Origin: Bilabrum cf. latius
Lineage: Eukaryota
Reading direction: 5' to 3'
Assembly (NCBI GenBank): GCA_965178125.1
Contig: OZ237745.1
Coordinates: forward strand, 1,116,001 to 1,180,000
Length of the DNA: 64,000 nt
The position numbers and the translations under genes are program-made. The notes beneath the pieces are model-generated. The model searched no databases, was not told where the DNA came from, and worked only from the letters and a program-made list of their open reading frames with translations. Of this stretch, positions 3-56,400 are shown one piece after another (the stretch's first letter is position 1; every line of letters starts with the position of its first letter).

Positions 3-2471
3 GCCGAGGCGAGGCATCGATCGGAGCTGTTCGAGCTGCAGAAGCAAGTCACGCAGCAAGGGGACAGCCTGCGGGCCGCGAACCGCCGCCTGGCCCGCGC
101 GACGGCCGAGCGCCGAGAGGCGGAAGCCCGCGCGGAGGCTCTGCTGCGAGGCATCGAGCGGGTTTGCGTGGGCCTCGTAGCGCCATTTGATGAAGCTGCA
201 GAGAGAGGGGAGGGGCGCGGGGAGCTAGTCGGCCTACATGACAGCGTAGACCCGCGCAGCGCGGCTCTGCTGGAAGCAAGGAGGGTGCGTGACGAGCTGC
301 AGCGCACTGTCCTGGAGCTGCAAACAGAGTTGGTCCGGGCGCAGACGCAGGCACGGCCCGCACAGGGAACAAGCGGTGGAGGCCACAAGAAGCTGCAAGC
401 AAAGGCTCCCAAAGGCCAGGCTGCGGCGAGTGGAGGCGCAGACGAGGCCAGCGGCAGCGGCGGAGGTGAGGGCTAGGAGGGGCCCGGAGTAGGCGACAGC
501 GTGCTGCTGGACGACTCGCTCGCGGAGCTGCAGGCCCTGTGGCGTCGCAGGGCGCATCAGGCGCAGGCAGTCTCCAAGGGGGCACTCGCGCAGCTGGAGG
601 CAGCCAAGGGCGAGGCTGCGCGGTTCGCTGCAGCGGCGATGCTCGCGCACGACCGGCTGCGGCAGCTCGCGAGAGGGCGGATGCGGGCAGCAAACGTGAA
701 CGGTAGCGACGATGTGGACGGCGGCGGCGAGTCGGGGCATCGGGGCGGCAGGCGCAATGGGAGGGACGCCGACGATGATGGGGCCGGCATCGGGGACCGG
801 TCGGGCCCCGTGTCCCGAGCCTCCTCCCGGCGGTCCTCTGCCGGCGGCCGCAGTCGGAGCCGGGGCGGTCAGCAGAAAACCGGTGGTACCGAGGCTGGCA
901 AGTCCCACGGCCAGGGCTCCAGTGCTGCGCGAATGAAGTAGCAGGAGCAGCAGCAGCAGCAGGAGCAGAGGCGGTCTGCGCCGAGTGCATCGGCGGCAGC
1001 TGCTGGCCCAACTGACTCAGCCGTAGATCGGATTCAGAGCCTTGGCGCACAGGAACTTCCCGCCGGCACGCAGCATGACACCGAGCTGCTTGGCCCGGCC
1101 GCTGCTGGCCGTCCCGACTCTGCAAGCAAGGCAGGGGTCCAGGAGGAGGACGGGCCGAAGAGTAGTATCCATGTCTAGCAGCATGAAGTCACCAAGAGCT
1201 TGAGCTAGAGCGGAGGCCCCTCCCTTCGAAGCGCTGAAGGTGCTGACGGTGGGACAGATACTGACGGCACCAACAGCAGCCCCATCGGCAAAAATGACGA
1301 TGCGAGCGAATCTCCCAGCAGCAGCACCAGCGAAGGCGCCGACAGCCGCGGGGCGGTCAGCCTCCCAGCGACCATTGGCGGCCCAGGCGCTAGCGCATCG
1401 AGGACGCCCACACCCTTCACCACTTTCTCCAGACCCTCGTACCTCGACTTCGACTCTGGCCGCCGCATGGACCGCCGCGAGTCCTTGTCTAGAGACGAGT
1501 CAGGCATGGTAAGCCCCATGGACCTCGGTGGCGGCGGAAGGGGCGAGCAGGGCCCTGGGACACCGGGTGCAGTGGAAGGAGGAGGGGCGAGGGCAGGAAC
1601 ACCAAGTTTGCAGGCAGGCGCACAGGAGGAGGTGCCACGGATGAGTGCACTCAGGGGCATAGCATCCGCGGTGTCGAACTGTAAAAGCAGCTTGCCGCCA
1701 CAGGCGCAATTGGTGCAGCCAGCAGCCGGGGCACACTTGCCTGTGGCGGCGGCGCCGCGCCTGTCCCCGCGGTCTGCAGGCAGCCCAGGCAGCCCCGGCA
1801 GCCGCAGCACCAGCGCGCCCATCCGAATGGAGTCCCCCGAGGGATAGCTCGATTCGGATTCCGAGTCGCTTCCGGACGGAGGCGGTCCCCCGGGGGACTC
1901 CCCCGAGGGCCCCGTGGGCGAGACAGCCGTTGGTAGCAAGCAAGGATAGTACGTGTTCGCTGATGCAAGCGCGGGCGTCTAGGGGCCGGAGCATCCGCAC
2001 CACCAAGAAGACGAGAACGGTAGCGGCACCGGCGGCATCCCTCTCCGTGCCCTGGTGCGGCGTGTGCGGGAGGGCAGGCCTCAACCGCTACCGCTGACTT
2101 CGAGCAGCAGTAAACCTAGCAGTTCCACCGGCAGCAAGCATGCGGATAAGGGTCACTCCACGCCATCTCCAGGCACGCGGCGTCTGGTCAGCAGGGCGGC
2201 TGCTCACGAGGTCAGAAGCATCGTGGATCGCAGGCTGGCAGGCCCCGTTGGTGGCTCAAGCAACTACCCCAAGCAAGCGGAAGGAGATGCGGGGGCTGAT
2301 GGAGACAGTGCGGGGCAGTTTGTGCAGCCGGGGCACCTATCTAGTCCCATTCCAACCCCTGACTTGGGAGCAGTCCCCGTCTTGTCCCGGACCCTCGAGC
2401 GCAAGAAGATGCGTAGACGTGGGCGGCCTGCATCTACAGGATCCAAGATCAACAGGCCGCCTGGGCTGTAA
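3..2471 (+). CDS. 5'-truncated coiled-coil/low-complexity hypothetical protein (requires TAG=sense)
   Basis: ORF pieces 168-476, 501-941, 1467-1847 and 2055-2471 share one frame. They are broken only by TAG (474, 939, 1176, 1206, 1845, 1947, 1980) and end in TAA at 2469-2471. The TAG at 939 opens a CAG-rich Q/E tract. Confidence 0.7.
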
Positions 2472-2584
2472 CAGAAATAATGCTATTGTTTTTTAAGTAT
2501 GTTTTTTGCGGACCGGGATGCAAGATTCAGATCAGAGATTCGAGCGCAAAGGGGTGATTCTTCGAATTGTGCATTTGTCTTTCT

Positions 2585-2609
2585 TGGTGGTGTTTAATTG
2601 AACACCGGG
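2585..2609 (-). terminator. Histone 3' stem-loop element (H4 copy 1)
   Basis: CCCGGTGTTCAATTAAACACCACCA on the minus strand, ~50 nt after the H4 stop; identical in all 12 histone genes. Confidence 0.8.
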
Positions 2610-2658
2610 TTGAGGTTTGGTTTGCTTGAAAGCTGCTTTCGCGCATTCAAGTGGCTGC

Positions 2659-3654
<996 letters not shown>

Positions 3655-3730
3655 GCGTCCGGCTGATGTTCGATCTGTCGGTCCGCCGGTCGGGCTGGCA
3701 GGCGTTCAAACGCAACCACCAAACCACAAC

Positions 3731-3755
3731 CCCGGTGTTCAATTAAACACCACCA
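3731..3755 (+). terminator. Histone 3' stem-loop element (H3 copy 1)
   Basis: Same 25-mer CCCGGTGTTCAATTAAACACCACCA downstream of the H3 stop. Confidence 0.8.
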
Positions 3756-3951
3756 TCGATGCAATCAATCACCAAATCGACTAATGTGAATCCAAGACTA
3801 CCTGAGATAGCATGAGTCTAGTCGGTATTATCCCAAGAACGATCAAAACAAATTTTGGTGCCCAAGCAAAACATGCGCTCAGAGAGAATAGAGATTAAGC
3901 CAGAATTGTGCTTGTAGACAATGTAGGCGTGAATAGTTCGCGATTGTTATC

Positions 3952-3976
3952 TGGTGGTGTTTAATTGAACACCGGG
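3952..3976 (-). terminator. Histone 3' stem-loop element (H2B copy 1)
   Basis: Same 25-mer on the minus strand downstream of the H2B stop. Confidence 0.8.
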
Positions 3977-4060
3977 GTATTGGTTGTGTTTGGGCAGGGC
4001 TCCGTGTATGCGCAGCGATTGGCTGCGCATCCGTCGTCCACCCAGCTGCCGTCAGGCTAT

Positions 4061-4411
4061 TCACTGGGAGAACTTAGTCACGGCCTTGGTGCCCTCAGAC
4101 ACGGCGTGCTTTGCCAGCTCGCCGGGCAGCACCAGGCGCACGGCGGTCTGCACCTCGCGGCTCGACAGCGTGGCCTTCTTGTTGTACTGGCCCAGGCGGG
4201 CAGCCTCGGTGCACACGCGCTCGAAGATGTCGTTGATGAACGAGTTCATGATGCTCATGCCCTTCTTGGAGATGCCCACCTCGGGGTGCACCTGCTTCAG
4301 CACGCGGTAGATGTACGTGGCGTACGACTCCACACGGCGCTTCCTCTTGCCTCCGGTGGAAGCTGCCTTCTTGGAGGCCTTGCCGGACTTCTTGGACGGG
4401 GTCTTGGGCAT
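4061..4411 (-). CDS. H2B: Histone H2B
   Basis: [16 protein letters not shown]...[32 protein letters not shown], 116 aa, TGA stop. Confidence 0.99.
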
Positions 4412-4709
4412 CTTGGTTCTTTTCTTGTTGCTTTGGAATGAAGAGGGACCGGCAGGGCAAACGACCGTGGATGTCAGTTTGAGTTGGTTGATGCATGCAC
4501 CTGTTCTGGCTGTGTTGATGTATCATGCATTGTAGCATACATGCAGATGCACATGTATGGACTGCATGACACACACGTACCCACGATGCATGCAATCCGG
4601 GTCCATCGATGCATGCAAGTTGCGCACCATGCGCGGCGCCAAACGGCAATCCAACAGCTGCGGCTCGATCCACCTGAACCTCATTCCAAAGCAACACAAA
4701 CAAAACAAC
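4412..4709. promoter_or_regulatory. Bidirectional H2B/H2A promoter
   Basis: Divergent spacer with TCATTCCAA at 4433-4441 (minus) and 4681-4689 (plus). GCAGATGCACAT and CATGCAATCCG are shared with the H4/H3 spacer. Confidence 0.75.
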
Positions 4710-5096
4710 ATGTCTGGCAAAGGAAAGGGTGGCCGTGGCAAGTCCTCTGGCAAGTCTGTCTCTCGGTCTGAGAAGGCCGGTCTGCAGTTCCCCGTGGGCC
4801 GTGTGGCCCGCTACATGCGCAACCAGCGCGTGGCCCAGCGCATCGGCTCTGGCGCCCCCGTGTACATGGCGGCTGTGCTTGAGTACCTCGCCGCTGAGGT
4901 GCTCGAGCTGGCCGGCCAGGCCGCTCGCGACAACAAGAAGGCGCGCATCATCCCCCGGCACATCCAGCTGGCGGTGCGCAACGACGAGGAGCTCAACAAG
5001 CTGTTCGGCAGCGTGACCATCGCTTCCGGCGGTGTGCTCCCCAACATCCACCAGGTGCTCCTGCCCAAGACCAAGGGCAAGAAGGGCGGCAAGTAA
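4710..5096 (+). CDS. H2A: Histone H2A
   Basis: [15 protein letters not shown]...[21 protein letters not shown]...GGVLPNIH, 128 aa; ATG at 4710, TAA stop. Confidence 0.99.
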
Positions 5097-5145
5097 GCAC
5101 CCTATCCTGGCGCACGAAGCCTGCAACAAGCTGGCAACGCAAAAT

Positions 5146-5170
5146 CCCGGTGTTCAATTAAACACCACCA
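5146..5170 (+). terminator. Histone 3' stem-loop element (H2A copy 1)
   Basis: Same 25-mer downstream of the H2A stop. Confidence 0.8.
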
Positions 5171-5407
5171 TGTAGCACAGCTTATCCCACTATAGACGAC
5201 AAAAATGTGTGCTAACTGAAGATTTCCAACTGGAGTTATTATTTGTGCTTAATTCAGCTGCGGTCTTGGTAGAATTCAGCGTAATAAAACTGTCACAATT
5301 GAGCCAAAACGAGATTGGCCAAACACATGATCACCGCCACTGCGTTGGCAGGCAATCGGCATTGCTTGCTTTGTCTGAGCCCTGCCATTTTGAAGCGGCA
5401 TGGTATC

Positions 5408-6869: not shown

Positions 6870-8675
6870 TCACCGCCCCCGCGCAAACCGAAGCGAGCGG
6901 TCCCCTTCGTCCTCGCTCACCAGCGTCGGCTTGCTCACTCGCCGAGCAGAACCAGCACCACCCCCTCCTACCACTACCCCTCCCCCTCGACTCGTCACAC
7001 TGCCGCTGCCCACGCTAAAGTCCCTCCCCGACGACTCGGCCGTCAGCGCATAGGGGGGCTCGTACCCGACACCCCCGCCGCTGCTGGTGCCGCCGCTCGC
7101 GAACCGCCCGCCGTCTCCGTAGTTCCGGTTAGGTGCCAGCGCGGACCCGGCCTCCTCCAGATCCGAGTCCGCGTGTGCGTTCGCAAACATGAGCTGCTGG
7201 GGGTCCAGGCCCCCGTCTGGGCCCGCGGCGCCCGGGACGACCGGCGGCTCCGCCATGCCGTCCACGTCGGTGTGCGCATGCAGCAGCGCGAAAATTGCGC
7301 CCCCCAGCACGGACCCGGCCAGCTCAGCGATCCAGTACACCCACATCCACCTCCCGCTCTTCTCTCCGTTGGCAAGCGCCGCGGACGCCACGCCCGTGGC
7401 CATGGCGGGGTTGAAGTAGCCTCCGCTGCCGGCCCCGTTCGGGCCCGCCATGTACCTGCCGATGGCATAGACCATCCCTATGGCAAGGCCGTGATACGAC
7501 GCCTGGTGCCCCTGCCGCTGCCCTGGGGTCTCCCACACGTCCATGATCTGCGTGGTGCAGGCCCACACCGTGTACACCAGCATGGCCGTCCAAACGAACT
7601 CGAACACGCCCGCCCCCGCCGGCCCGTGGCTGCCCTCGGGACCCCCGAACTTGACGTCACCCTGCAGTACCAGCGCCGCGAAGCCCGCCAGCACCGCCCC
7701 GACGACCTGCGCCAGGCTGACGATGGCCGTCTTCCAGGCGTCCGCGATGTAGCCGAACCGGGTGAGGAGCCCGAAGGACACCGCGGGGTTGTAATCGCCC
7801 CCGCACATGTGGTCCCCCATGTGAACCATGGCAGTGACCATGGCCCCCACCGCCAGGGGGTGTCCCCCCAGCGCCGCCACCAGCGTGATGAAGAACGCCC
7901 CGATCATCTCCACCAGGGGCACGCGGAGGCTCAGCCGCCGGTCCCCCTCGTCCTGGGGCACCGTGCCTCCCTGTGCCTCGGCCTCGGCCTGCCTCAGCTC
8001 CAGCGCCTTGGACTCTTCCTGTTCCTTCTGGTACATGAACATGAGCCAAGAGGAGAGCACCCCGCTGAGGATGCCCCCGATGGGGGGACCCACCCAGTAG
8101 ACCCACACGTCGCCCATCGAGCCGCCGTTGAAGAGCGCGGCCAGGTCCCGGCCGGTGCCTACCGCGGAATTGAAGCACCCGCCGGAAATACCCCCGGCGG
8201 CACTGACTCCCGCGAGCAGCGACGAGCCGATGGCAATCCCCGTGTAGCTGTTCGGCTCGAGCTGGTTCTGGTGAGACACCTGCTGCACCACCAGAGACAG
8301 CGAAAAAGCGAACAGGCCCTCCACGAAAACCGCGCTGATGTTGGGATGGCTTAGCTTCGGGTTCGGCTGGAACTCGGATATGTTGCTAGCTCCAGCCACA
8401 GCATACGAGAGCAACGCGCCTACCGTCCCGCCAAGCACCTGGACGAGAATGTACAGAAAGCACATCACGGCTGTCATGCGACCGGCAGCCAGCATGCTAA
8501 GGGATACAGTAGGGTTATAATGTGCGCCGCAAATGTGGTCGAACGCGTACACGATAACCATAAGAGTGAGTCCGGCCGCCAGATACGTATCGTCCGGGCT
8601 CAGGCAGATCGCCATCGTCAAGATCATAGTTCCAAGAAACTCAGCTACCAGTGCCTGCGTTGCTCGAGGCATCAT
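6870..8675 (-). CDS. Tandem (double) MIP/aquaporin family channel
   Basis: 601-aa intact ORF with two MIP units: AEFLGT...GAHYNPTVS...GGCFNSAVG...WVYWVGP, then VEMIGAF...GGDYNPAVS...GGYFNPAMA...WVYWIAE; TGA stop. Confidence 0.92.
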   Translation of the reverse strand: MMPRATQALVAEFLGTMILTMAICLSPDDTYLAAGLTLMVIVYAFDHICGAHYNPTVSLSMLAAGRMTAVMCFLYILVQVLGGTVGALLSYAVAGASNISEFQPNPKLSHPNISAVFVEGLFAFSLSLVVQQVSHQNQLEPNSYTGIAIGSSLLAGVSAAGGISGGCFNSAVGTGRDLAALFNGGSMGDVWVYWVGPPIGGILSGVLSSWLMFMYQKEQEESKALELRQAEAEAQGGTVPQDEGDRRLSLRVPLVEMIGAFFITLVAALGGHPLAVGAMVTAMVHMGDHMCGGDYNPAVSFGLLTRFGYIADAWKTAIVSLAQVVGAVLAGFAALVLQGDVKFGGPEGSHGPAGAGVFEFVWTAMLVYTVWACTTQIMDVWETPGQRQGHQASYHGLAIGMVYAIGRYMAGPNGAGSGGYFNPAMATGVASAALANGEKSGRWMWVYWIAELAGSVLGGAIFALLHAHTDVDGMAEPPVVPGAAGPDGGLDPQQLMFANAHADSDLEEAGSALAPNRNYGDGGRFASGGTSSGGGVGYEPPYALTAESSGRDFSVGSGSVTSRGGGVVVGGGGAGSARRVSKPTLVSEDEGDRSLRFARGR

Positions 8676-9282
8676 ACATCAAGATATCCAAGGTGCAATT
8701 CTCCGCCTGGTCGGGATAAAGCATGGGTGCGATGCCACATTGGTCCGGCAAAACGGGCGACGCACTGCAACTACCAACCACGCTGCCTCACCTGCACGAC
8801 TCTGACTTGCGCCTTTGCTCGCTTCACTTCCTCAAACTAGGCTATTTGTTCTTCTCTTATATCATCGTAATAATTGTCCATGGCTGACTAATAGTCCGAT
8901 CGGACGCGGGCTTTCAACTGCCAAATAGTCCGTCTGCAACCTCACAAACCACTGCACGTTACAATATCCGGGTTTTGTTGCATGTGACGAGGAGAAATCG
9001 TCCACCGAACTACTGCTCGCCGTAGCTCGCATCTAGAGGCTTTTGCTGCTATTTGTCCCTCTGAAGTCGCTAACACGTCCTTTATAATTGTCGATCAGGC
9101 AGTAACGTCTGAAATTATACTTAGTTTGGCAGGAAGGGGGCTAATGCCAAGGGTCACTAGTTGAATTTTTGCGGACGAGTGCATCGAACGGCATTCACTT
9201 TAGTTCTCTAGCTGGTGCATCCTATTACTTACCGGATTGATTTGCATCGAGAGGGGCAAGCTAGTGCCGAGATTCCTGTCTC

Positions 9283-14378: not shown

Positions 14379-15038
14379 TCACGTCCGTTTCAATTTAACT
14401 CCAATCATGTCTGCGTCCTCTCCCACCCCAGACTCGAAGAGGTCGGCCCGCCCGCTGTCGCGCAGGCACCGGACGGCTGCGAGCACTGTCCCGGCGTCCA
14501 GCCCATGGAACGAGGCATCGCTCGTCGTGGTCCCTTCCCGGAGCTCAAACACTGTCAGCACCGAACCAAACATATTTGTGCGCTGCGCATACTGGTATAT
14601 GGCGTCTGCCCACTCCGCCGGGGACTTGAAGTATATGCGGCAACGCAGCTTGGCGCTATCTTCCCATTCACCATTGCCCATGGCGACAACAAAGTCCATC
14701 ACTTTGCGAATTCCCGCTTCATCTAGTTTCCCTGCGCAAAAAAGTGCCAATTGATGCAAAGGTCGCCACATTTCAATGGCGACGCGGTCCAGAACGGCCA
14801 AAGGAAACAAGATATGCTGCTCACGATCTATTCTCTTATTCTCGAACAGCGGCCAGTCAAGCACGCTCATGCTTGTTTTTGCGTTTGCTTCGTGCCACTT
14901 AATTACAACGTCTCGCCATTCTTTCAGCTGCATCATCCTGACCTCGTCATTCGGCTGAATGGTGAAGAAAGGGGGGAAATTATAGGTAGGCGGCAACTCA
15001 AACTTGGCTTTCGCCGAGTCGGCTCCAGCACCAGCCAT
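14379..15038 (-). CDS. VPS25: ESCRT-II subunit VPS25; one 93-nt intron at 14732-14824
   Basis: PPTYNFPPFFTIQPN motif, LFENKRIDR|KLD, and SPAEWADAIYQY...VLTVFEL. Removing the GTGAGC...GCAG intron restores the family alignment. TGA stop. Confidence 0.93.
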   Translation of the reverse strand: MAGAGADSAKAKFELPPTYNFPPFFTIQPNDEVRMMQLKEWRDVVIKWHEANAKTSMSVLDWPLFENKRIDREQHILFPLAVLDRVAIEMWRPLHQLALFCAGKLDEAGIRKVMDFVVAMGNGEWEDSAKLRCRIYFKSPAEWADAIYQYAQRTNMFGSVLTVFELREGTTTSDASFHGLDAGTVLAAVRCLRDSGRADLFESGVGEDADMIGVKLKRT

Positions 15039-15227
15039 ACTACAGTTTTGCTACAAGGCACTTGCAATGTTCGATCTCCTTGTGCGCTACAGCACAAATA
15101 ATTATTGGATTTAGGCGTGGTCGTCACATCCCCGCCGTCGACTGTGCCGAGCTGCAGAAAGTACCGATTCGCACAAACGGTCGCCCATTGGAAACGTTTC
15201 CACCAGAGTCCGACTTCAGCAGTGATC

Positions 15228-19400: not shown

Positions 19401-20356
19401 ATGGCAGCGTCATCTACCGATGTCCCACTGTTAGACAAAGAGGAGGCGCAGAAAATATATGTTTGGATCGACGCAATCCCCCTCACCCGACCGAAACGAA
19501 ACATCACAAGGGATTTTAGCGATGGCGGTAAGACCAACTCGTATGCTTACCATGAATGTTGTGTGTTGGTGCGGCCATTGCCTCGCTGGGAACCTTCGGG
19601 CGCGCGTTCGATGCACGCGGCACATGAGCCAGGTTCTCGCTGCCTTCCCTGTCCTTCGCAGTCTTGGTAGCTGAAGTGGTCCATGCGTACTTCCCGAAAC
19701 TTGTGCAGTTGCACAACTACAGTGCGGCTAACAGCGTGAAGCAGAAAATGTACAACTGGGGCACGCTCAACAAGAAGGTGTTCAAGCGAATGGGGTTCGA
19801 CATCAAGCGCCACGAGATCGAAGCTATTGTAAATGGGGTGCCTGGCATGGTTGAGGTTATTTTGATGCGATTGCAAGCCCGCATGAGCGAGATTCGAGCC
19901 GCGAAGAGGCGAAAAGGGGCGTCTGGAGGGTCGGGGTCCTTCGGGGGCGGAACGAGCGGGGCTTCGGCAGCGCGACCCGGTCCCGCAGGTGGCGCTACAG
20001 TTGGGTCGATGATGAGCCCAGGAAGCATGGGGGGAAGCGGCGGTCGCGCTGCCCTTGCCGCGCCCGCTCCCGCCGCCTACGACGGCGCTGGCCCAGCAGC
20101 CATGGGCGGCATGGACGGGGGCTCCCGCGCCCCAGCCGGCGGGGGGGCCGACATGTCCCTTCTCGCTGAGAAGGAGCGGCGCATCCAGGAGCTGGAGGAG
20201 ATGAACGAGTTCATGGAGCTCAAGATCAAGAAGCTGGAGCAGCTGGTGCAGCTGAAGGACTCGAGGATCCACAACCTGCAGGCTCGGCTGCAGCAGATGC
20301 AGATGGGGGGAGGCGGGGGCGGGCCCATGCCCGCGGGTCCCTCGGGCGGGCGGTGA
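19401..20356 (+). CDS. SPEF1: Sperm flagellar protein 1 (SPEF1/CLAMP) homolog; CH_2 domain plus C-terminal coiled coil; intron 19528-19661
   Basis: YVWIDAIPLTRPKRNITRDFSDG|VLVAEVVHAYFPKLVQLHNY...KMYNWGTLNKKV, and C-terminal ELKIKKLEQLVQLKDSRI; GTAAG...GCAG intron; TGA stop. Confidence 0.93.
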
Positions 20357-50462: not shown

Positions 50463-53400
50463 TCACCTAGCTTCCGGATCAAATGAAAGGGCAAGCACGA
50501 TTGTCCCAGCCCCAATCGATTCATCGCCAGGCTTACGCAGCTCGACCTCGACCGGCACGAAGCTCGAGGCAGCAGCACCCAGGAGCATGCCCAATCCAAG
50601 GCTTCCCTCAGCGATGACATCATCCGATGAGAACCTGTCATAATCCAACACCTCGATTGCCAGAGTTGCATTGGAAGCGTCCTGCACCTAGAGATCGAAC
50701 ACGGGTCCTCCATCCTTCCCATCGTCCCATTGAGGATTCAATGTGCCATCTCGGCGCTCGGACACGGCGGGCTCTCCTGGACCCGCACCGGTCCCACGAG
50801 TCTGTAGTCGCACGTATGGGTCCGCAGATCCCATGAGGTCTGCACGGGGCAGGCCCTCTGCGTGGTGCAATCGGATGTGAACCACGCCGGCCGTGGCCGG
50901 TGCTGGCGCTGGAGCTGGAGCTGGCGCTGGAGCTGGCGCTGGAGCTGGCGCTGGAGCTGGCGCTGGCGCTGGCGCTGGCCCTGGCGCTGGCGCTGGAGCT
51001 GGCGCTGGCGCTGGAGCTGGCGCTGGCGCTGGCGCTGGCGCTGGCGCTGGCGCTGGAGCTGGCGCTGGTTCGGATTGACCTCCTTGCCTCTGGTTCGCAG
51101 ATGCATGCCTCTTCCCCTGCCCCTGCCCCTGCCCCTGCCCCTGCCCGTTTGGAAGGAATTTCATCGCTATCGTGAGCACGCCTCCGTCCCCGCCCGCGCC
51201 AGTCCTGCCCTTGGACAGCTGCTGCTGGCAGACGGTCCACTCCCCGGATGCGGACCCTCGCAAGGCCCCGGGCAGGGCCTCAGCAATTGCCTGCTCCGCG
51301 CTGCACAACTCGTCGTCACCAGTCGCACCGTCGTGGTCAAACACGCGCATCCGCACTCGCGCCTTCCGCACGTCCAGCACCGGCAGCCGGAACTCGGGCG
51401 GGTCACCAACCCTGTCCCACTCGGGGTCCTGGGTGCCGTGCTGCGTGTCCGACTGCACCCACGGGCAGCCGTCCTCGTCCACGTTGAACTTGACGTACGG
51501 GTCCGAGGAGCCGAAGAGGTCTCCCTTTGGCAGGCCCTTGCCGTTGTGCAGCCGAAGCAGCAGGCTCCCCGGGCCGGGGATCGGAGCCTCGCTGCCAGCT
51601 GCACCCGCCGTTTTTTCCTGCGATTCTTTTCCTGCGGGCAGTGCTCCCGACGATGACGCACCTTTTCCTGCTGGCAGTGCTCCCGACGATGACGCACCTT
51701 CGTGGGCAGGGACAGGGGCAGGGGCAGGAGCTGCTCTTGTGCTGACAGCCTCCTCCTCCTCGTCCTCCTCTTCCTCTGCCTTCTCCCTGCCCCGGCTCTC
51801 ATTTCCCCCTACTTTGATGTTCCCCGCCTTGTTCTCTTCGCCCAATACAGAGACTGTAGCTGCAGGCTGCTCTACAGAGCCACCATGCGAGGCTGCAGGC
51901 TACTCTACAGAGCCACCATGCGAGGCTGCAGGCTGCTCTACAGAGCCACCATGCGAGGCTTCATCTTCACCTGCTCCCGCCTTTGCATCCTCCGTGTCAG
52001 CCGGTGCGTCTCTCGTGACGTCGCTGCCATTCTCACCACCTTCCCCGTCGCCACCAGCGCCAGCCGCATCGCTGGAAGCTGCCCACTCCGAGGGCAAAGG
52101 CGAGAAACGAAGCGACACAGCGAGGCTGCCCCCGCCCGTCGCCTCAGGCTCGGACCCTCGCGCCAGAGACAGTTCCACCGGAACGAAAGCAGTCTCGCCC
52201 ACGGACCCGACAAGGAACCCCAGCTCGCGATCCGCCCCGCACAGCTGGTCATCCCCGGTGTATCTATCGTGGTCGTACACCTGCACGCGCAGCTTGGCTC
52301 TGCTGGCGTCTTTCACGGGCAGCTAAAACTCGGGTGCGGGCTGGCCTGCGTCCCACCTTGGGTCCTGCGTGTTGTCCCGCTTCTCGGAGGTCACCCACGG
52401 GCAGCCGTCCTCGTCCACGTTGAACTTGACGTACGGGTCCGAGGAGCCGATGGTGTCCGAGTCGGGCAGGCCCTCGGCGTGGTGCAGGCGGATGTGCAGC
52501 GTGCCGCTCGCAGGGCCATTATGAGGAGCCGATGGTGTTGGGGGCTGACTTGAGGCAGCGTCTGCTGTCCCTGTCCCTGTCCCTGTTCCTGCCCCTGTGC
52601 CAGCGCCAGCGCCGGTTGCAGGAGACAGCACCTCGCTGCGGCCCTCGTCCACCAGCGGCTGTCCAGCGGGAGACACTGCTGGCTTCCTGCTGGTTGCAAC
52701 CGGCTGCTCCTGTTCTCCACCGGTGGCGGAAGCGACGGCCGGCGTGTCATCGCCGGCATCGTCGAAGCCATCCTCGCTGTACCCGTCGCCACTGCCCTGC
52801 TCGCTTCCATTGGCACCGTCTGCATCCTTGGCACTGTCTGCATCCTGCTCAGAGTGGAGTACAGCAGCAGCAGCAGCAGGGGGGTCCTGACTGGGTGGCT
52901 CCGGACGTGGTGACCCGGGGGGCGGGCTCTCTGCCGCCAACCGGGCTATCAGGCCTCGGGACCCAGAGGCTGAGGGAGAGGGAGAGGGAGAGGGGGAGTC
53001 TCCTCCAACAGGCTGGACGAGGTACTCTGGGGAGGCGCTGTCCGCGCCCGCAACAAAGCCACCCTCCTCCTCCGGTCCACCGCGCTGAGAGGGCAAAGAG
53101 GGAGAAGCGGCGGGCTCATAGGCCTCCGCGACGGGAGCCGGCGTTCCCTCGGGAGCCACTGGCAGCCGCGGCTCCCCATCGCCGGCAAGCCCATTCGCGT
53201 TCGGCAGCCGAGTCAAGTCTCGCGCGCTGCGGGCGCGCCGACCGGGCAGCGGCGGCCTGTTGCCGCTGCCCGGTCGCTGCGGCTGCGGCGCGAGCAGGTC
53301 CTCGTCATCCTCTTCGTCACCGTCATCGTCACTGTCCAGTAGGCTGAGCCCGCCGCCCGCGCGCCCCCCCGTCCGCCCGATGCCGAGGCCCTCCGCGGAC

Positions 53401-56400
53401 CCATCCCCCCCACCTTGAGCGCCGGGCTTGGCATTGGTCCCTGACTTGGCCCTCCGGCGCTTCGAGAGGGTATCGTTCGCGCTGAGAGGACGAGAGCGCG
53501 CGGACTGTGGCCTCCTCCTCGCGCTGGCCGGGCGCCGGCCCGAGCCCTCCGCCGTGCTGGGCCGCTTGAACCGCTCCAGGTGGTCAAAGTTCTCGTCCAC
53601 CTGAAAGCGGGCCAGGGAGCCGCCCCCCTTCACGCCAGTTTGACCACCACCTGCCCCGCCTTGCTCGTCGCTGCCTCGACTCACCTCCTCCTGATCCTCG
53701 GACCTACTAGTCCGCAGGATTCCCGCGAGCGGGCCGCCGCCCTGCTCCGCTTCCTCCCCATCCGGGTTGCGCCCATGCCTATGCCCAGAGGCAGAGCCAG
53801 GAGGCCCGCTGCCATCGTCCCCTCCGAACACGGCGGCGAAGTCTTTCTCGAACTGCTCTTTTTCTTCCTTGCTTGCGGGCTTGCCCGCGCTCGATGCCAC
53901 TCCGCCCGTGTTGAGAGGAGCATCTTCCTCCTCTTCCTCTTCCTCCTCTTCCTCTTCCTCTTCCTCCTCTTCCTCCTACACCGCCTCCTGCTACCCCGCC
54001 TGCTCATACTCTTCAAGTTGCTTCTGCCTTTGCTCAACTCCGTCCTCCGGGGGTTGCCCTTCTACAGCACCTCTATCTTTGTCGACCTGCAGCTCCCCAC
54101 CACCAGCACCAGCACCAGCGCGCTCGCTTTCACCACCGCGTTTGTCGCCCCCTTTCCTCTCTGCATCGCTGTTGCCGCCATTCCCACTAGTCTGCTCCTG
54201 CTCCTGTAGCAGGGAGGGCCGCGGGGCCGCGGGTGCATCGCCTTGCGGTGCAGCCAGGGCGTTCTCGGACGCTGCTCCCAACTCGTCGGCGCCTGCGTCA
54301 TCATTGTCGGCCTCGTCGTCCTCGTCCGACAGGGCGGGGTGGCCCTGCTGCTGCCTCGACTGCTCATCCACTGCCACGCCCTGCTCCTGCCCCAGCTCTC
54401 CAGCACCCAGCCGGTCCTGCCCCACCCTATCTTCATCTTCATCGCTGGGCACGTGGCCCCTGGGCACCCGGCCCTCTCGCACCCTCCCCCTCCCCCTCTG
54501 CTCCAGCTCCTCCTGCCGGCCGTACACCGCCTCCGCCCCCCGCATCAATGCAGAGGTGGGGCGGGAGGACGGAGCCGAGGAGGAGCCTCGGGACCTGCTA
54601 CTGCCGCCCCCAGGCCCACGGCCTCGACCACGGCCTCGCCTGCGTGAGGGCGACGAGGACGGGGAGCCACGCCGCGCCTGCACCTGGGAGATAGGCCTGC
54701 CCCTGCCCCTACCCCTGCCCCTGCCCCTGCTGCCCCTGGGCGCACCTCTCGCCGGGGAAGACAGCGTCTCCTCCCCCTCTCCCCCCCCCTCCCCGTCAAG
54801 GAGAGGCCCGAACGCGTCCCCCACGTCAGGTCCCTCTTCCCCCGGCCCCATGCTCGGGTCCCAGCTCATGCGGCCCTCCAGCGCGGCGCGCTCCGCCTGC
54901 GAGGGGGAGAGCCGACGGGGCGGGTGCAGGTCTCCGTATCCGCGGCGCCTGCCCCTTGCGGAACCTCCCAGGGGCCCGGCACCGGCGGCCTCCGCGATGG
55001 CTTGCACCCGCAGCCGTCGGTTGCGGAGGTCCGCGCGGGCCCGGGCGATCATCTAGTCGATCTCGCGGACTGCCTCCGCCGCGCGACCGTCGATGGGCAG
55101 GCCGTCGCCGGCGTGCCCTCCCGATTCCACTCCTACTGGACCTCCCACTGGACCTCGACCGTGCCCTTGCCCTTGCCCTTGCCCACCTCCCCCGTACTGG
55201 CCGGGCCTCTGTTCTCCCACCCACTCCGCCTCCTCGAGCGCCCGCCGGTACCTGCCGCTCCCACTACCACCGCTCGCGCCCATTTCCGATTCCGGGTCGT
55301 CCTGGATGCCCAGAGCGGCGGCCTCTTCGTCGTAGGCCTCCTTCGAGGGGGGGGGCTCCCCCCGGGGATATCCCCCCCCAGCACCGGGGTGCTCCCCGAT
55401 GGACGGGAGTGCAGACCCGCGGCCCCCATCCTCAGGCTGCCTCCACCGTTCCCGTCCCTCCTATTCGTAGTCCGCCGCCGCCACGGGATCCGTGCCGCGC
55501 GGCGGAAGGCCCCTGCCCCGCATGCCCCTGCGGCTCCGAGACCTGCTCCCGCCCCGCCCATCCCTTGTTCCCTGGGACCCTGCCACGGAGGGCAGAGCCG
55601 ATGCGGGCCGGCCTCGCTTGCCGCGGCTTTGCCTCGTCCTGCGGCGCCGGTTCTACGAAACACCTCCGGCTGCAGCAGCAGGGGCTGTGCCACCCAGACC
55701 CACGCCCGCACGGGCGGCGAGCCGGGGCCCCCTTCTTCCCGAAGCGAATTCAGACAGTCTCTTGGCGTGCTTGCGGTTTTCCTTGGCCTCCTTGCGCAGC
55801 TTCCTGGCCGAGTAGATGGGCCCGGTGGCTTCGATCCGCTTCAGCATGCTCTGCTTTTTGTGAAAGGTAGGAGATTTGGGAATCGCACGGATATGGGTTT
55901 GCTAAGAATGCATAGATTTTGTTTGGAGCCAGCGATGACCGCCATTGATACACGGGGGACTTGGCTGGAGCGACAGCAGTCAAGTTGCCGTCCACCAGCG
56001 GAGGCAAGGCAGACGGTTCGGCACGGCTGCGCTTGAGCAGGGACCACGCCGATTCTCACCTGGTTCTCGGCAGTGATTTTCTAAAGCCGCTTTCTTCGCT
56101 GTTCAATGTTCATCGAACGCGGCTTGGTGCGCCTGCGGTTATCGACGCTGGCCGGCCCGCGGATGATCGCGTGCATTCGGGTCAGCAGCAGCAAGTTCTG
56201 CCGCTCGATCTCGGCGTAGCGCTCTGCCATTTGCATTTCTTTCTTTGGATTTCGCCTGACGGCCCCAGCTGTCGCGGGTCGTGTCCTCCCGGCGGGTGGA
56301 CGCCTAGGCAAGGCGCTGCGCGGACGCTGGCTAACCTTGGGCCCGCCCGCGATTGGGGGCATCCCCGCAACAGTTTCTGTTGGGGGACCAGTATCAACGG

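What the first reader, a model, noticed from the sequence alone, without database searches (positions are those of the whole stretch)
3731..3755. Non-canonical histone 3' stem-loop identical in all 12 histone genes
Seen: CCC-GGTGTT-CAATTA-AACACC-ACCA lies 50-85 nt after the stop of every H2A, H2B, H3 and H4, although the four 3' UTRs are otherwise unrelated. Known: the SLBP-bound histone hairpin is a 6-bp stem starting GG with a 4-nt U-rich loop and an ACC(C)A 3' flank. Here the GG base, 6-bp stem and ACCA flank are kept, but the loop is 6 nt (or 4 nt plus a C-A mismatch) and the stem sequence differs. Inference: a divergent histone mRNA 3'-end system with a co-evolved SLBP. No conserved downstream HDE is visible.
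Basis: partly seen in the sequence, partly recalled or inferred. Interest (0 to 1): 0.75.

Follow-up and report, generated by a model that had tools for sequence, protein, structure and literature searches.

The report
Histone mRNA hairpin with enlarged loop
All twelve histone genes in this stretch are followed by the same RNA hairpin, a relative of the well-known histone mRNA end signal whose loop is two bases longer than usual: a modest new variant of a known signal, not a new system.

Summary
The 25-mer CCC-GGTGTT-CAATTA-AACACC-ACCA occurs 12 times without a mismatch (0 expected). It lies on the sense strand 49-84 nt after the stop of each of the 12 histone genes in the window.

It is a loop-expanded version of the histone mRNA 3' stem-loop, not a separate system. 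In 80 environmental loci with related H2B genes, 87 of 138 histone genes carry a GG...CC 6-bp hairpin followed by A (shuffles: mean 2.2). GGTGTT/AACACC is the commonest stem (33 of 87). Loops are 4 nt in 62 hairpins, 5 nt in 22 and 6 nt in 2 (CAATTC).

A model built only from the 4-nt-loop relatives finds exactly the 12 window hairpins (17.3-21.1 bits; next best 8.3). Rfam Histone3 gives 15 bits against a threshold of 34.

Identity between gene copies is 92-100% up to ACCA and collapses within 0-14 nt after it. That fits an RNA end at ACCA. No RNA data could be laid, and no genome was available to look for SLBP or U7.

A uniform downstream element is absent; only H4 has AAAGA.

The scan noted a divergent histone hairpin before on other DNA (e1-566204).

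The parts
2585..2609 (-). hairpin block CCC-stem-CAAUUA-stem-ACCA after H4 (quartet 1)
   Evidence: exact 25-mer; 49 nt after the stop; R1 hit of 21.1 bits; Rfam Histone3 15.0 bits
3731..3755 (+). hairpin block after H3 (quartet 1), the finding's coordinates
   Evidence: 76 nt after the stop; fold of -7 kcal/mol; R1 20.9 bits
3952..3976 (-). hairpin block after H2B (quartet 1)
   Evidence: 84 nt after the stop; R1 19 bits
5146..5170 (+). hairpin block after H2A (quartet 1)
   Evidence: 49 nt after the stop; R1 20.2 bits
44465..44489 (-). hairpin block after H2B (quartet 2)
   Evidence: R1 17.3 bits
45659..45683 (+). hairpin block after H2A (quartet 2)
   Evidence: R1 20.7 bits
46208..46232 (-). 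hairpin block after H4 (quartet 2)
   Evidence: R1 19.2 bits
47353..47377 (+). hairpin block after H3 (quartet 2)
   Evidence: R1 20.9 bits
47762..47786 (-). hairpin block after H2A (quartet 3)
   Evidence: R1 20.7 bits
48956..48980 (+). hairpin block after H2B (quartet 3)
   Evidence: R1 18.5 bits
49181..49205 (-). hairpin block after H3 (quartet 3)
   Evidence: R1 20.9 bits
50326..50350 (+). hairpin block after H4 (quartet 3)
   Evidence: R1 19.2 bits
2659..2970 (-). histone H4 gene, quartet 1 (103 aa)
3244..3654 (+). histone H3 gene, quartet 1 (136 aa)
4061..4411 (-). histone H2B gene, quartet 1 (116 aa)
4710..5096 (+). histone H2A gene, quartet 1 (128 aa)
44574..44924 (-). histone H2B gene, quartet 2
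45223..45609 (+). histone H2A gene, quartet 2
46282..46593 (-). histone H4 gene, quartet 2
46867..47277 (+). histone H3 gene, quartet 2
47836..48222 (-). histone H2A gene, quartet 3
48521..48871 (+). histone H2B gene, quartet 3
49281..49691 (-). histone H3 gene, quartet 3
49965..50276 (+). histone H4 gene, quartet 3
2573..2584 (-). 12 nt after ACCA of H4 (AGAAAGACAAAT), identical in all three H4 copies; candidate purine-rich downstream element
   Evidence: inferred role only

Best explanation
The 25-mer is the histone mRNA 3' stem-loop of this GC-rich eukaryote, whose lineage I could not resolve. It is a homologue of the SLBP-bound hairpin of animals, green algae and many protists, with the loop enlarged from 4 to 6 nt. 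The loop CAAUUA reads as two extra bases, CA, on the 5' side of a tetraloop-like AUUA, and CCC replaces AA before the stem.

Inferred mechanism: the hairpin forms in the nascent histone pre-mRNA after an unpaired A/C-rich leader. It is bound by an SLBP-type protein that reads mainly the GG stem base and the flanks. It then directs endonucleolytic cleavage at or just after ACCA, so the mature histone mRNAs end in the hairpin rather than a poly(A) tail. The same hairpin on all four histone classes would allow their joint, S-phase-linked control.

Shown here: the sequence, position, orientation, fold, family likeness and conservation boundary. Inferred, not shown: protein binding, the cleavage site, absence of poly(A) and cell-cycle control.
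For: 1. In 12 of 12 histone genes the element is exact, on the sense strand, 49-84 nt after the stop. It does not occur elsewhere in the 64 kb.

2. The predicted fold is a 6-bp stem with a 6-nt loop at -7 kcal/mol. It is kept in 4 of 4 UTR contexts and is preceded by an unpaired A/C-rich stretch.

3. In 80 loci with related H2B genes, 87 of 138 histone genes with a stop codon have a perfect GG...CC 6-bp hairpin followed by A within 300 nt. Fifty shuffles gave a mean of 2.2 and a maximum of 6. Stems covary: 4 of 6 pairs change on both sides, with 3-5 pair types at the variable pairs.

4. Features my scan did not impose match the classic hairpin. Loop position 1 is U in 56 of 62 and position 3 is U in 57 of 62. 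The second 3' flank base is C in 80 of 87. Upstream A+C is 0.79 against 0.51.

5. Model R1, built from the 62 four-nt-loop relatives only, ranks the 12 window hairpins as its top 12 hits in the window (17.3-21.1 bits, E 0.0014-0.019). The next hit scores 8.3 bits.

6. Rfam Histone3 aligns the element as stem, a 2-nt insert, AUUA, stem, ACCA (15.0 bits). The same stem with a UUUC loop scores about 30 bits in relatives.

7. Loop enlargement is not unique to this window. Relatives have 22 five-nt and 2 six-nt loops (CAATTC in L074). The nearest relative by H2A+H2B, L015 (SH-like support 0.991), has 5-nt loops CTATC and CCATC.

8. Gene copies are 92-100% identical in promoter, CDS and UTR up to ACCA. 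In copy pairs without a shared flank, identity falls to 0.41-0.51 over the next 30 nt. The duplicated spacer is 83.6% identical against 97.3% for the whole unit.

9. There is no TGTAA, and only 3 AATAAA (in 2 of 12 genes), from the stop to 120 nt past the hairpin.

10. Literature seen as passages: green algae have non-polyadenylated histone mRNAs with stem-loops and SLBP (PMC13130582; bioRxiv 10.64898/2026.10.14.759114). The G at stem position 2 gives the only base-specific SLBP contacts (PMC10388802).
Against: Rfam Histone3 fails its threshold: no hit at gathering in the whole window. In the 3-kb search only 1 of 4 hairpins was listed, at 15.0 bits against 34, E 2.7.

The 4-nt loop with U at position 1 and the AA before the stem are both absent. 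PMC10388802 names the two 5' adenines as part of the minimal high-affinity SLBP site.

No common purine-rich downstream element was found. AAAGA occurs within +5..+25 in 3 of 12 genes, all H4, against 29 of 86 in relatives. One H2A copy (5171 onward) shares nothing with the other two after ACCA.

No RNA 3' end was seen, because read laying did not run. SLBP, U7 and Lsm10/11 were not searched, because no genome is held.

My hairpin scan imposed GG/CC, perfect pairing and a following A. The 100% pairing is therefore by construction.

In the relatives, 46 of 133 histone genes with at least 100 nt downstream have no such hairpin.
Confidence: 0.75

Rival explanations
1. The hairpin is a retained histone stem-loop, but it no longer defines the RNA end. 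Histone mRNAs would be cleaved and polyadenylated further downstream, and the hairpin would act only as a 3' UTR stability or translation element. This is the 'decoupled' or intermediate state proposed for some plants and early fungi.
For: The preprint 10.64898/2026.10.14.759114 describes lineages with stem-loops plus polyadenylation features (abstract; section 12). PMC13130582 reports genes with both isoforms in moss and fern. No uniform downstream element exists here. The enlarged loop and the missing 5' AA could reflect relaxed constraint.
Against: The 25-mer, loop included, is identical in four otherwise unrelated UTR classes, so it is not relaxed. Identity between copies ends at ACCA or within 14 nt of it. 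There is no TGTAA and almost no AATAAA within 120 nt. The polyadenylation signal of this organism is unknown, so the last point is weak.
Confidence: 0.15
2. The hairpin marks the RNA end but is read by a protein other than a classical SLBP, or by an SLBP with changed loop and 5' flank recognition. Cleavage would not depend on a U7-type guide.
For: The 6-nt loop and CCC flank depart from the minimal SLBP site. No common downstream element was found. The loop sequence is fixed in all 12 genes although relatives vary theirs between histone classes.
Against: The G at stem position 2, the 3' A and the 6-bp stem, which make the key contacts, are kept. Mixed loop lengths on one contig in relatives (L074, L064) suggest simple tolerance. 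Nothing was tested at the protein level.
Confidence: 0.08
3. The palindrome acts at the DNA level, as a recombination or gene-conversion boundary or a transcription-termination site, or it is merely carried along by recent duplication.
For: The three quartets are recent duplicates; Q1 against the inverted Q3 is 97.3% identical. The similarity boundaries lie close to the hairpins.
Against: Duplication explains identity within a histone class but not across four classes with unrelated UTRs. The asymmetric parts (CCC, the loop CAATTA, ACCA) are on the sense strand in 12 of 12 genes. Related organisms keep the hairpin through compensatory stem changes, which points to RNA pairing.
Confidence: 0.02

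Closest known systems
Metazoan replication-dependent histone mRNA 3' stem-loop (Rfam RF00032 Histone3), read by SLBP and cut by the U7 snRNP/CPSF73 machinery
   Same: It lies shortly after the stop of all four core histone classes. It has a 6-bp stem starting GG, a U-A top pair, an ACC(C)A-type 3' flank and an A/C-rich unpaired leader. The Rfam model aligns it full length.
   Different: The loop is 6 nt (CAAUUA) rather than 4 nt (UYUM). CCC rather than AA precedes the stem. The stem is GGUGUU rather than GGCUCU. It lies 49-84 nt from the stop, against a median of 30 nt in animals (preprint passage). The score is 15 bits against the 34-bit threshold. No common purine-rich HDE was found.
Histone 3' palindromes and stem-loops of green algae (Chlamydomonas, Volvox), with non-polyadenylated mRNAs and SLBP
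   Same: It is a non-animal lineage with divergent H3-H4 and H2A-H2B pairs and a hairpin after every core histone gene. The algal case is known to me only through passages citing Fabry 1995 and Muller 1990 and section 12 of the preprint.
   Different: Those algal hairpins are described as relatively canonical and followed by purine-rich HDEs. I could not see their sequences; my impression that they use a similar stem is recalled and untested. The histones here (H2B of 116 aa) match no named species in my searches.
Environmental GGUGUU/AACACC histone hairpins found here (for example L015, L074, L058, L061, L037)
   Same: They have the identical stem and ACC flank. L015 groups with the window (SH-like support 0.991) and has 5-nt loops beginning with C. 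L074 H2A has the 6-nt loop CAAUUC, one base different from CAAUUA.
   Different: Most have 4-nt loops, and loops differ between histone classes on one contig. Many have a clear AAAGA or CAGAA element 8-15 nt after ACC. In the window all four classes share one loop and lack a common downstream element.
   Same: It is a histone-specific hairpin described as a divergent relative of RF00032 in a small alga.
   Different: It is on other DNA. I saw only the short note and did not test it.

Membership tests
Histone 3' UTR stem-loop (Rfam RF00032) / SLBP-type histone mRNA end | Lies in the 3' UTR a few tens of nt after the stop of replication-type core histone genes, on the sense strand | tested here: met
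   12 of 12 genes, 49-84 nt after the stop
Histone 3' UTR stem-loop (Rfam RF00032) / SLBP-type histone mRNA end | 6-bp stem with G-C at positions 1 and 2 (G at position 2 is the base-specific SLBP contact) | tested here: met
   GGUGUU/AACACC, fold; the role of G7 comes from PMC10388802 passages
Histone 3' UTR stem-loop (Rfam RF00032) / SLBP-type histone mRNA end | 4-nt loop with U at positions 1 and 3 | tested here: not met
   The loop is 6 nt, CAAUUA. cmscan treats CA as an insert and aligns AUUA to the loop consensus, which keeps the U at consensus loop position 3.
Histone 3' UTR stem-loop (Rfam RF00032) / SLBP-type histone mRNA end | 3' flank ACC(C)A | tested here: met
   ACCA in 12 of 12
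Histone 3' UTR stem-loop (Rfam RF00032) / SLBP-type histone mRNA end | A-rich 5' flank with two adenines directly before the stem | tested here: not met
   CCC precedes the stem in 12 of 12. The wider 16 nt are A/C-rich (A+C 0.75-1.0), as in relatives (0.79).
Histone 3' UTR stem-loop (Rfam RF00032) / SLBP-type histone mRNA end | Reaches Rfam's gathering score (34 bits) | tested here: not met
   0 hits at gathering. The best hit is 15.0 bits, E 2.7, and 1 of 4 hairpins was listed in the 3-kb search.
Histone 3' UTR stem-loop (Rfam RF00032) / SLBP-type histone mRNA end | Purine-rich histone downstream element (U7 binding site) about 10-20 nt after the cleavage site | tested here: inconclusive
   AAAGA within +5..+25 in 3 of 12 genes (H4 only), against 29 of 86 in relatives and 0 of 86 in their control region. 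The motif [GC]AAAT occurs in 4 of 6 independent downstream classes but was chosen after looking at the data.
Histone 3' UTR stem-loop (Rfam RF00032) / SLBP-type histone mRNA end | Genome encodes SLBP (PF15247), and in animals U7 snRNA, Lsm10/11 and FLASH | not testable with these tools
   No genome is held for the window. There is no U7 or other Rfam hit in the 64 kb.
Histone 3' UTR stem-loop (Rfam RF00032) / SLBP-type histone mRNA end | Mature mRNA ends a few nt after the stem and has no poly(A) tail | not testable with these tools
Indirect only: identity between copies ends at ACCA or within 14 nt of it, and there is no TGTAA.
   All 12 hairpins score 17.3-21.1 bits, E 0.0014-0.019, over 128 kb of strand. 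The next hit scores 8.3 bits. The loop is handled as a local insertion.

The most novel reading that the evidence does not exclude
In this lineage a 6-nt loop has become fixed on every core histone mRNA hairpin and the 5' adenines are lost. Cleavage at ACCA would work without a shared U7-type downstream element. More widely, loop length (4-6 nt) would be a free variable of the histone hairpin in a large set of uncultured protists and algae that 6+4+6 scans have counted as lacking the signal.
Probability: 0.3. Interest if true: 0.55.

Novelty: new variant of a known kind. Interest (0 to 1): 0.38.

Why it matters
The histone hairpin is treated as one of the most invariant RNA signals: a 6-bp stem and a 4-nt loop. 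Current surveys look only for that geometry. The October 2026 preprint scanned a 16-nt 6+4+6 window and states that different loop lengths may be missed. RF00032 also misses the 5- and 6-nt-loop cases.

This window, together with 24 loop-enlarged hairpins in environmental relatives, shows that such variants exist and can be fixed across all four histone classes. Some lineages scored as 'no stem-loop' may therefore be false negatives.

It also offers a natural test of how much the SLBP-type reader and the 3' exonuclease depend on the loop. It does not change the known picture of how histone mRNA ends are made.

Tried and rejected
- **Whole genome.** A search for the motif, SLBP and U7 failed because no genome is held.
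- **RNA evidence.**
  - The look-up of sequencing runs listed 22 runs. Two were guessed to be RNA, with word shares of 0.42 and 0.27. Four held 0.72-0.82, and the metatranscriptomes held 0.07-0.14.
Nothing can be said about expression, RNA ends or habitat from these runs.
- **Taxon.**
  - The Vps25-like ORF gave only 26-36% identical hits.
  - H2B gave unnamed metagenome proteins as its closest hits, at 99% and 93%.
  - The RRP12-like ORF against longer proteins found nothing.
  - The exact H2A and H2B sequences are not in the collection, and their neighbours carry no names.
  - The two Atlas look-ups gave no usable lineage. A green-algal origin is therefore only a guess.
- **Earlier notes.** The look-up by place found none for this genome and only two unrelated giant-virus notes.
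- **Exact pattern elsewhere.** There were 0 matches in viral contigs. There were 2 in prokaryote genomes, both without histone genes and within chance expectation by my estimate.
- **Transcript-like contigs.** None of the 12 hairpins near a locus end lies within 50 nt of it, so these are genomic contigs.
- **Relaxed hairpin scan.** On the 46 hairpin-less histone genes of relatives it found 2, against a shuffle mean of 1.0.
- **Shared downstream motif.** [GC]AAAT has a nominal P of 7e-5 but was chosen after looking at the data, so I do not count it.
- **Literature.**
  - Five searches found no paper describing 5- or 6-nt histone loops.
  - Four papers I asked for by id are not held. Davila Lopez & Samuelsson 2008 and Tan 2013 are therefore known to me only through citing passages, as are Fabry 1995 and Muller 1990, which I did not request.

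Full report
**1. The observation**

The window holds three histone quartets: 2585-5170, 44465-47377 and 47762-50350. tblastn with the window's own four histones finds exactly 12 genes, three of each class, all intronless and 99-100% identical within a class.

The 25-mer CCCGGTGTTCAATTAAACACCACCA, searched with up to three mismatches, matches 12 times, each time exactly. None was found in 100 dinucleotide-preserving shuffles. Each copy lies on the sense strand of one histone gene. The distance from the stop is 49 nt for H4 and H2A, 75-76 nt for H3 and 84 nt for H2B. A looser search, GGTGTT-N3-8-AACACC, adds no further site.

Apart from an A/C-rich tail before the stem (A+C 0.75-1.0 over 16 nt), the four UTR bodies are close to unrelated. 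Alignment z-scores are 0.5-2.3 for five class pairs and 4.2 for H4/H3. As RNA the element folds into a 6-bp stem with a 6-nt loop at -7 kcal/mol. The same hairpin, preceded by an unpaired leader, appears in the minimum-energy fold of all four full 3' UTRs.

**2. What it is**

Rfam's Histone3 model (RF00032) gives no hit at its gathering score anywhere in the window. With relaxed thresholds on 2400-5400 it lists one of the four hairpins at 15.0 bits against a threshold of 34, E 2.7. It aligns the element full length as stem, a two-base insert (CA), AUUA, stem, ACCA. That alone is weak evidence, so I looked for relatives.

A scan of metagenome contigs with the H2B protein returned 80 loci, 62-88% identical. 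These hold 141 histone gene matches, 138 of them with a usable stop codon. Of those 138, 87 have a perfect 6-bp hairpin within 300 nt of the stop that starts GG, ends CC and is followed by A. Fifty shuffles of the same stretches gave a mean of 2.2 and a maximum of 6.

The commonest stem is the window's own, GGTGTT/AACACC (33 of 87). Others include GGATTT/AAATCC, GGTGAA/TTCACC, GGATAT/ATATCC and the animal-type GGCTCT/AGAGCC and GGCCCT/AGGGCC. Four of the six stem pairs therefore change on both sides across the set. The 100% pairing in that count is by construction of my scan.

Features the scan did not impose are those of the classic histone hairpin:
- U at loop position 1 in 56 of 62 four-nt loops.
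- U at loop position 3 in 57 of 62.
- C as the second 3' flank base in 80 of 87.
- An A/C-rich leader (0.79 against 0.51 in the rest of the downstream stretch).

A covariance model built from the 62 four-nt-loop hairpins alone, with no window sequence, finds the 12 window hairpins as its 12 best hits in the window. They score 17.3-21.1 bits, E 0.0014-0.019. The next hit scores 8.3 bits.

Rfam Histone3 on nine relatives gives a graded series:
- GGCUCU hairpins score 24-41 bits.
- GGUGUU with a UUUC loop scores about 30 bits.
- GGUGUU with a UCUU loop scores about 21 bits.
- The loci with 5- or 6-nt loops give no hit.

The stem is thus not unusual. The low Rfam score comes from the loop insert and the flank.

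**3. Loop length**

Among the 87 hairpins of relatives, loops are 3 nt in 1, 4 nt in 62, 5 nt in 22 and 6 nt in 2. A further 5-nt candidate, a second hairpin behind one H4 gene, was set aside as probable chance.

The two 6-nt loops are CAATTC after two H2A genes of L074, one base different from the window's CAATTA. The H2B gene on that contig has the 5-nt loop GCATC. L064 mixes 4-, 5- and 4-nt loops.

I built a FastTree tree from concatenated H2A+H2B. It has 42 rows: the window plus the 41 of 80 loci that hold both genes with enough coverage; the other 39 were left out. In it the window pairs with L015, a contig with G+C 0.66 whose hairpins are GGTGTT-CTATC/CCATC-AACACC-ACC, with SH-like support 0.991.

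Loop enlargement is therefore a recurring feature of this group of uncultured eukaryotes. The window is the case where 6 nt is fixed in all four histone classes.

**4. Where the functional unit ends**

Copies of the same gene are 92-100% identical over 200 nt of promoter, the CDS and the UTR up to the hairpin. Where two copies have different neighbours, identity in the 30 nt after ACCA drops to 0.41-0.47 for H2A and H2B. For H4 and H3 it is 0.70-0.80, because the first 11-14 nt stay the same and the rest does not (sequences).

Quartet 1 is an inverted copy of quartet 3. They match in 2522 of 2591 aligned columns (97.3%), but the spacer between the H3 and H2B hairpins matches in only 168 of 201 (83.6%).

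Across the four classes the shared block is exactly the 25 nt ending in ACCA. TGTAA is absent, and AATAAA occurs at three places in two genes, from the stop to 120 nt past the hairpin. All of this fits a transcript that ends at or just after ACCA, but it is indirect.

**5. Downstream element**

In relatives AAAGA occurs within +5..+25 of the stem in 29 of 86 hairpins and in 0 of 86 in a control region at +35..+56. Purine content peaks at 0.70 at +11..+15. This is the expected signature of a U7-type downstream element. Other sub-groups show their own motifs, such as CAGAA and GGAAT.

In the window only the three H4 copies have AAAGA, within AGAAAGACAAAT directly after ACCA. H3 keeps TCGATG(A/C)AATCAAT. 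Two H2A copies keep ACTCATGAAAT, and the third H2A copy is unrelated after ACCA. A shared [GC]AAAT core occurs in 4 of 6 independent classes against a background of 0.048. I chose it after looking at the data and do not rely on it.

**6. Mechanism and rivals**

Most likely (0.75): this is a homologue of the SLBP-type histone hairpin that marks the end of non-polyadenylated histone mRNAs, with a two-base loop insertion.

The contacts reported as decisive for SLBP are kept. [quoted passage not shown] The two 5' adenines named there are not kept.

Green algae are reported to have such hairpins, SLBP and poly(A)-less histone mRNAs (passages of PMC13130582; preprint section 12).

The rivals are:
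- a retained hairpin with polyadenylation downstream (0.15);
- a changed or different reader without a U7 guide (0.08);
- a DNA-level role or a duplication artefact (0.02).

The last is contradicted by the fixed sense orientation, the identity across unrelated UTRs and the compensatory changes in relatives.

**7. What is known and what is new**

Histone stem-loops outside animals have long been described. I saw this only as cited. An October 2026 preprint surveys them across eukaryotes (abstract and sections 8, 10 and 12). That survey scanned a fixed window of a 6-bp stem, a 4-nt loop and a 6-bp stem, and it states that different loop lengths may be missed.

Five literature searches turned up no description of 5- or 6-nt histone loops.

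I therefore class the finding as a new variant of a known kind. It works like a histone stem-loop and is homologous to it. It fails two defining features of the curated family, the 4-nt loop and the Rfam threshold, so I do not file it as a plain RF00032 member.

**8. Limits**

- The organism is unidentified.
- No genome was available for SLBP, U7 or a genome-wide motif count.
- No RNA reads could be laid.

Noticed in passing
window 2585-5170, 44465-47377, 47762-50350: The three histone quartets are built from two divergent pair units, H4<>H3 and H2B<>H2A, in shuffled order. Quartet 3 is an inverted copy of quartet 1 (97.3% identical) whose inner spacer has diverged to 83.6%. The pair units of quartet 2 are 97.5-98.6% identical to those of quartet 1.
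   Followed up: partly
window 3977-4060 (-) and 2610-2658 (-): The 3' UTR bodies of H2B and H4, upstream of the shared hairpin, fold into additional stable class-specific hairpins. H2B has a 9-bp GC-rich stem. The whole-UTR z-scores are -3.8 and -3.7, with 0 of 200 shuffles folding as well.
   Followed up: no
window 3058-3159 (H4-H3 intergenic promoter): CA/TG-rich, microsatellite-like tracts in the divergent H4-H3 promoter give spurious weak microRNA hits: mir-297 at 25.7 bits against a threshold of 90, and mir-460. Long spurious ORFs cross all the histone promoters.
   Followed up: no
L074 (2306 nt) and L064 (4043 nt): Hairpins of different loop length sit after different histone genes on one environmental contig. 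L074 has H2A CAATTC (6 nt, twice) and H2B GCATC (5 nt). L064 has H2A AATA (4 nt), H2B ATTTA (5 nt) and H4 TTAC (4 nt, with a different stem, GGTTTC).
   Followed up: partly
L001-L080, 5-25 nt after the hairpins: The downstream elements are lineage-specific. (C/G)AAAGA follows GGATTT/GGATAT/GGATCT stems and the CATTT-loop GGTGTT group. GGAAT follows the GGTGTT-TTTC group. CAGAA follows L058 and L074. AAAAATAAAGCAAAT follows GGCCTT stems.
   Followed up: partly
L001-L080: 46 of 133 histone genes with at least 100 nt of downstream sequence have no GG...CC hairpin even under relaxed rules. In L010, L025 and L028 the H3 or H4 gene has one while H2A and H2B on the same contig do not.
   Followed up: no
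window 50688-51350 (-) and 52323-53975 (-): An ORF with a long (AP)n repeat and a GQ repeat lies next to quartet 3. The neighbouring ORF ends in a C2 domain.
   Followed up: no
window 14382-15050 (-), 19628-20353 (+), 6870-8678 (-), 38118-40412 (-): Other recognisable genes are an ESCRT-II/Vps25 subunit, a CH_2 (sperm-flagellar type) domain protein that hints at a flagellate stage, a MIP aquaporin and an RRP12-like HEAT protein. Ten further long ORFs gave 9 with no Pfam match. The 1053-aa ORF at 32017-35178 is Ser/Ala/Gly-rich (not scanned against Pfam).
   Followed up: partly
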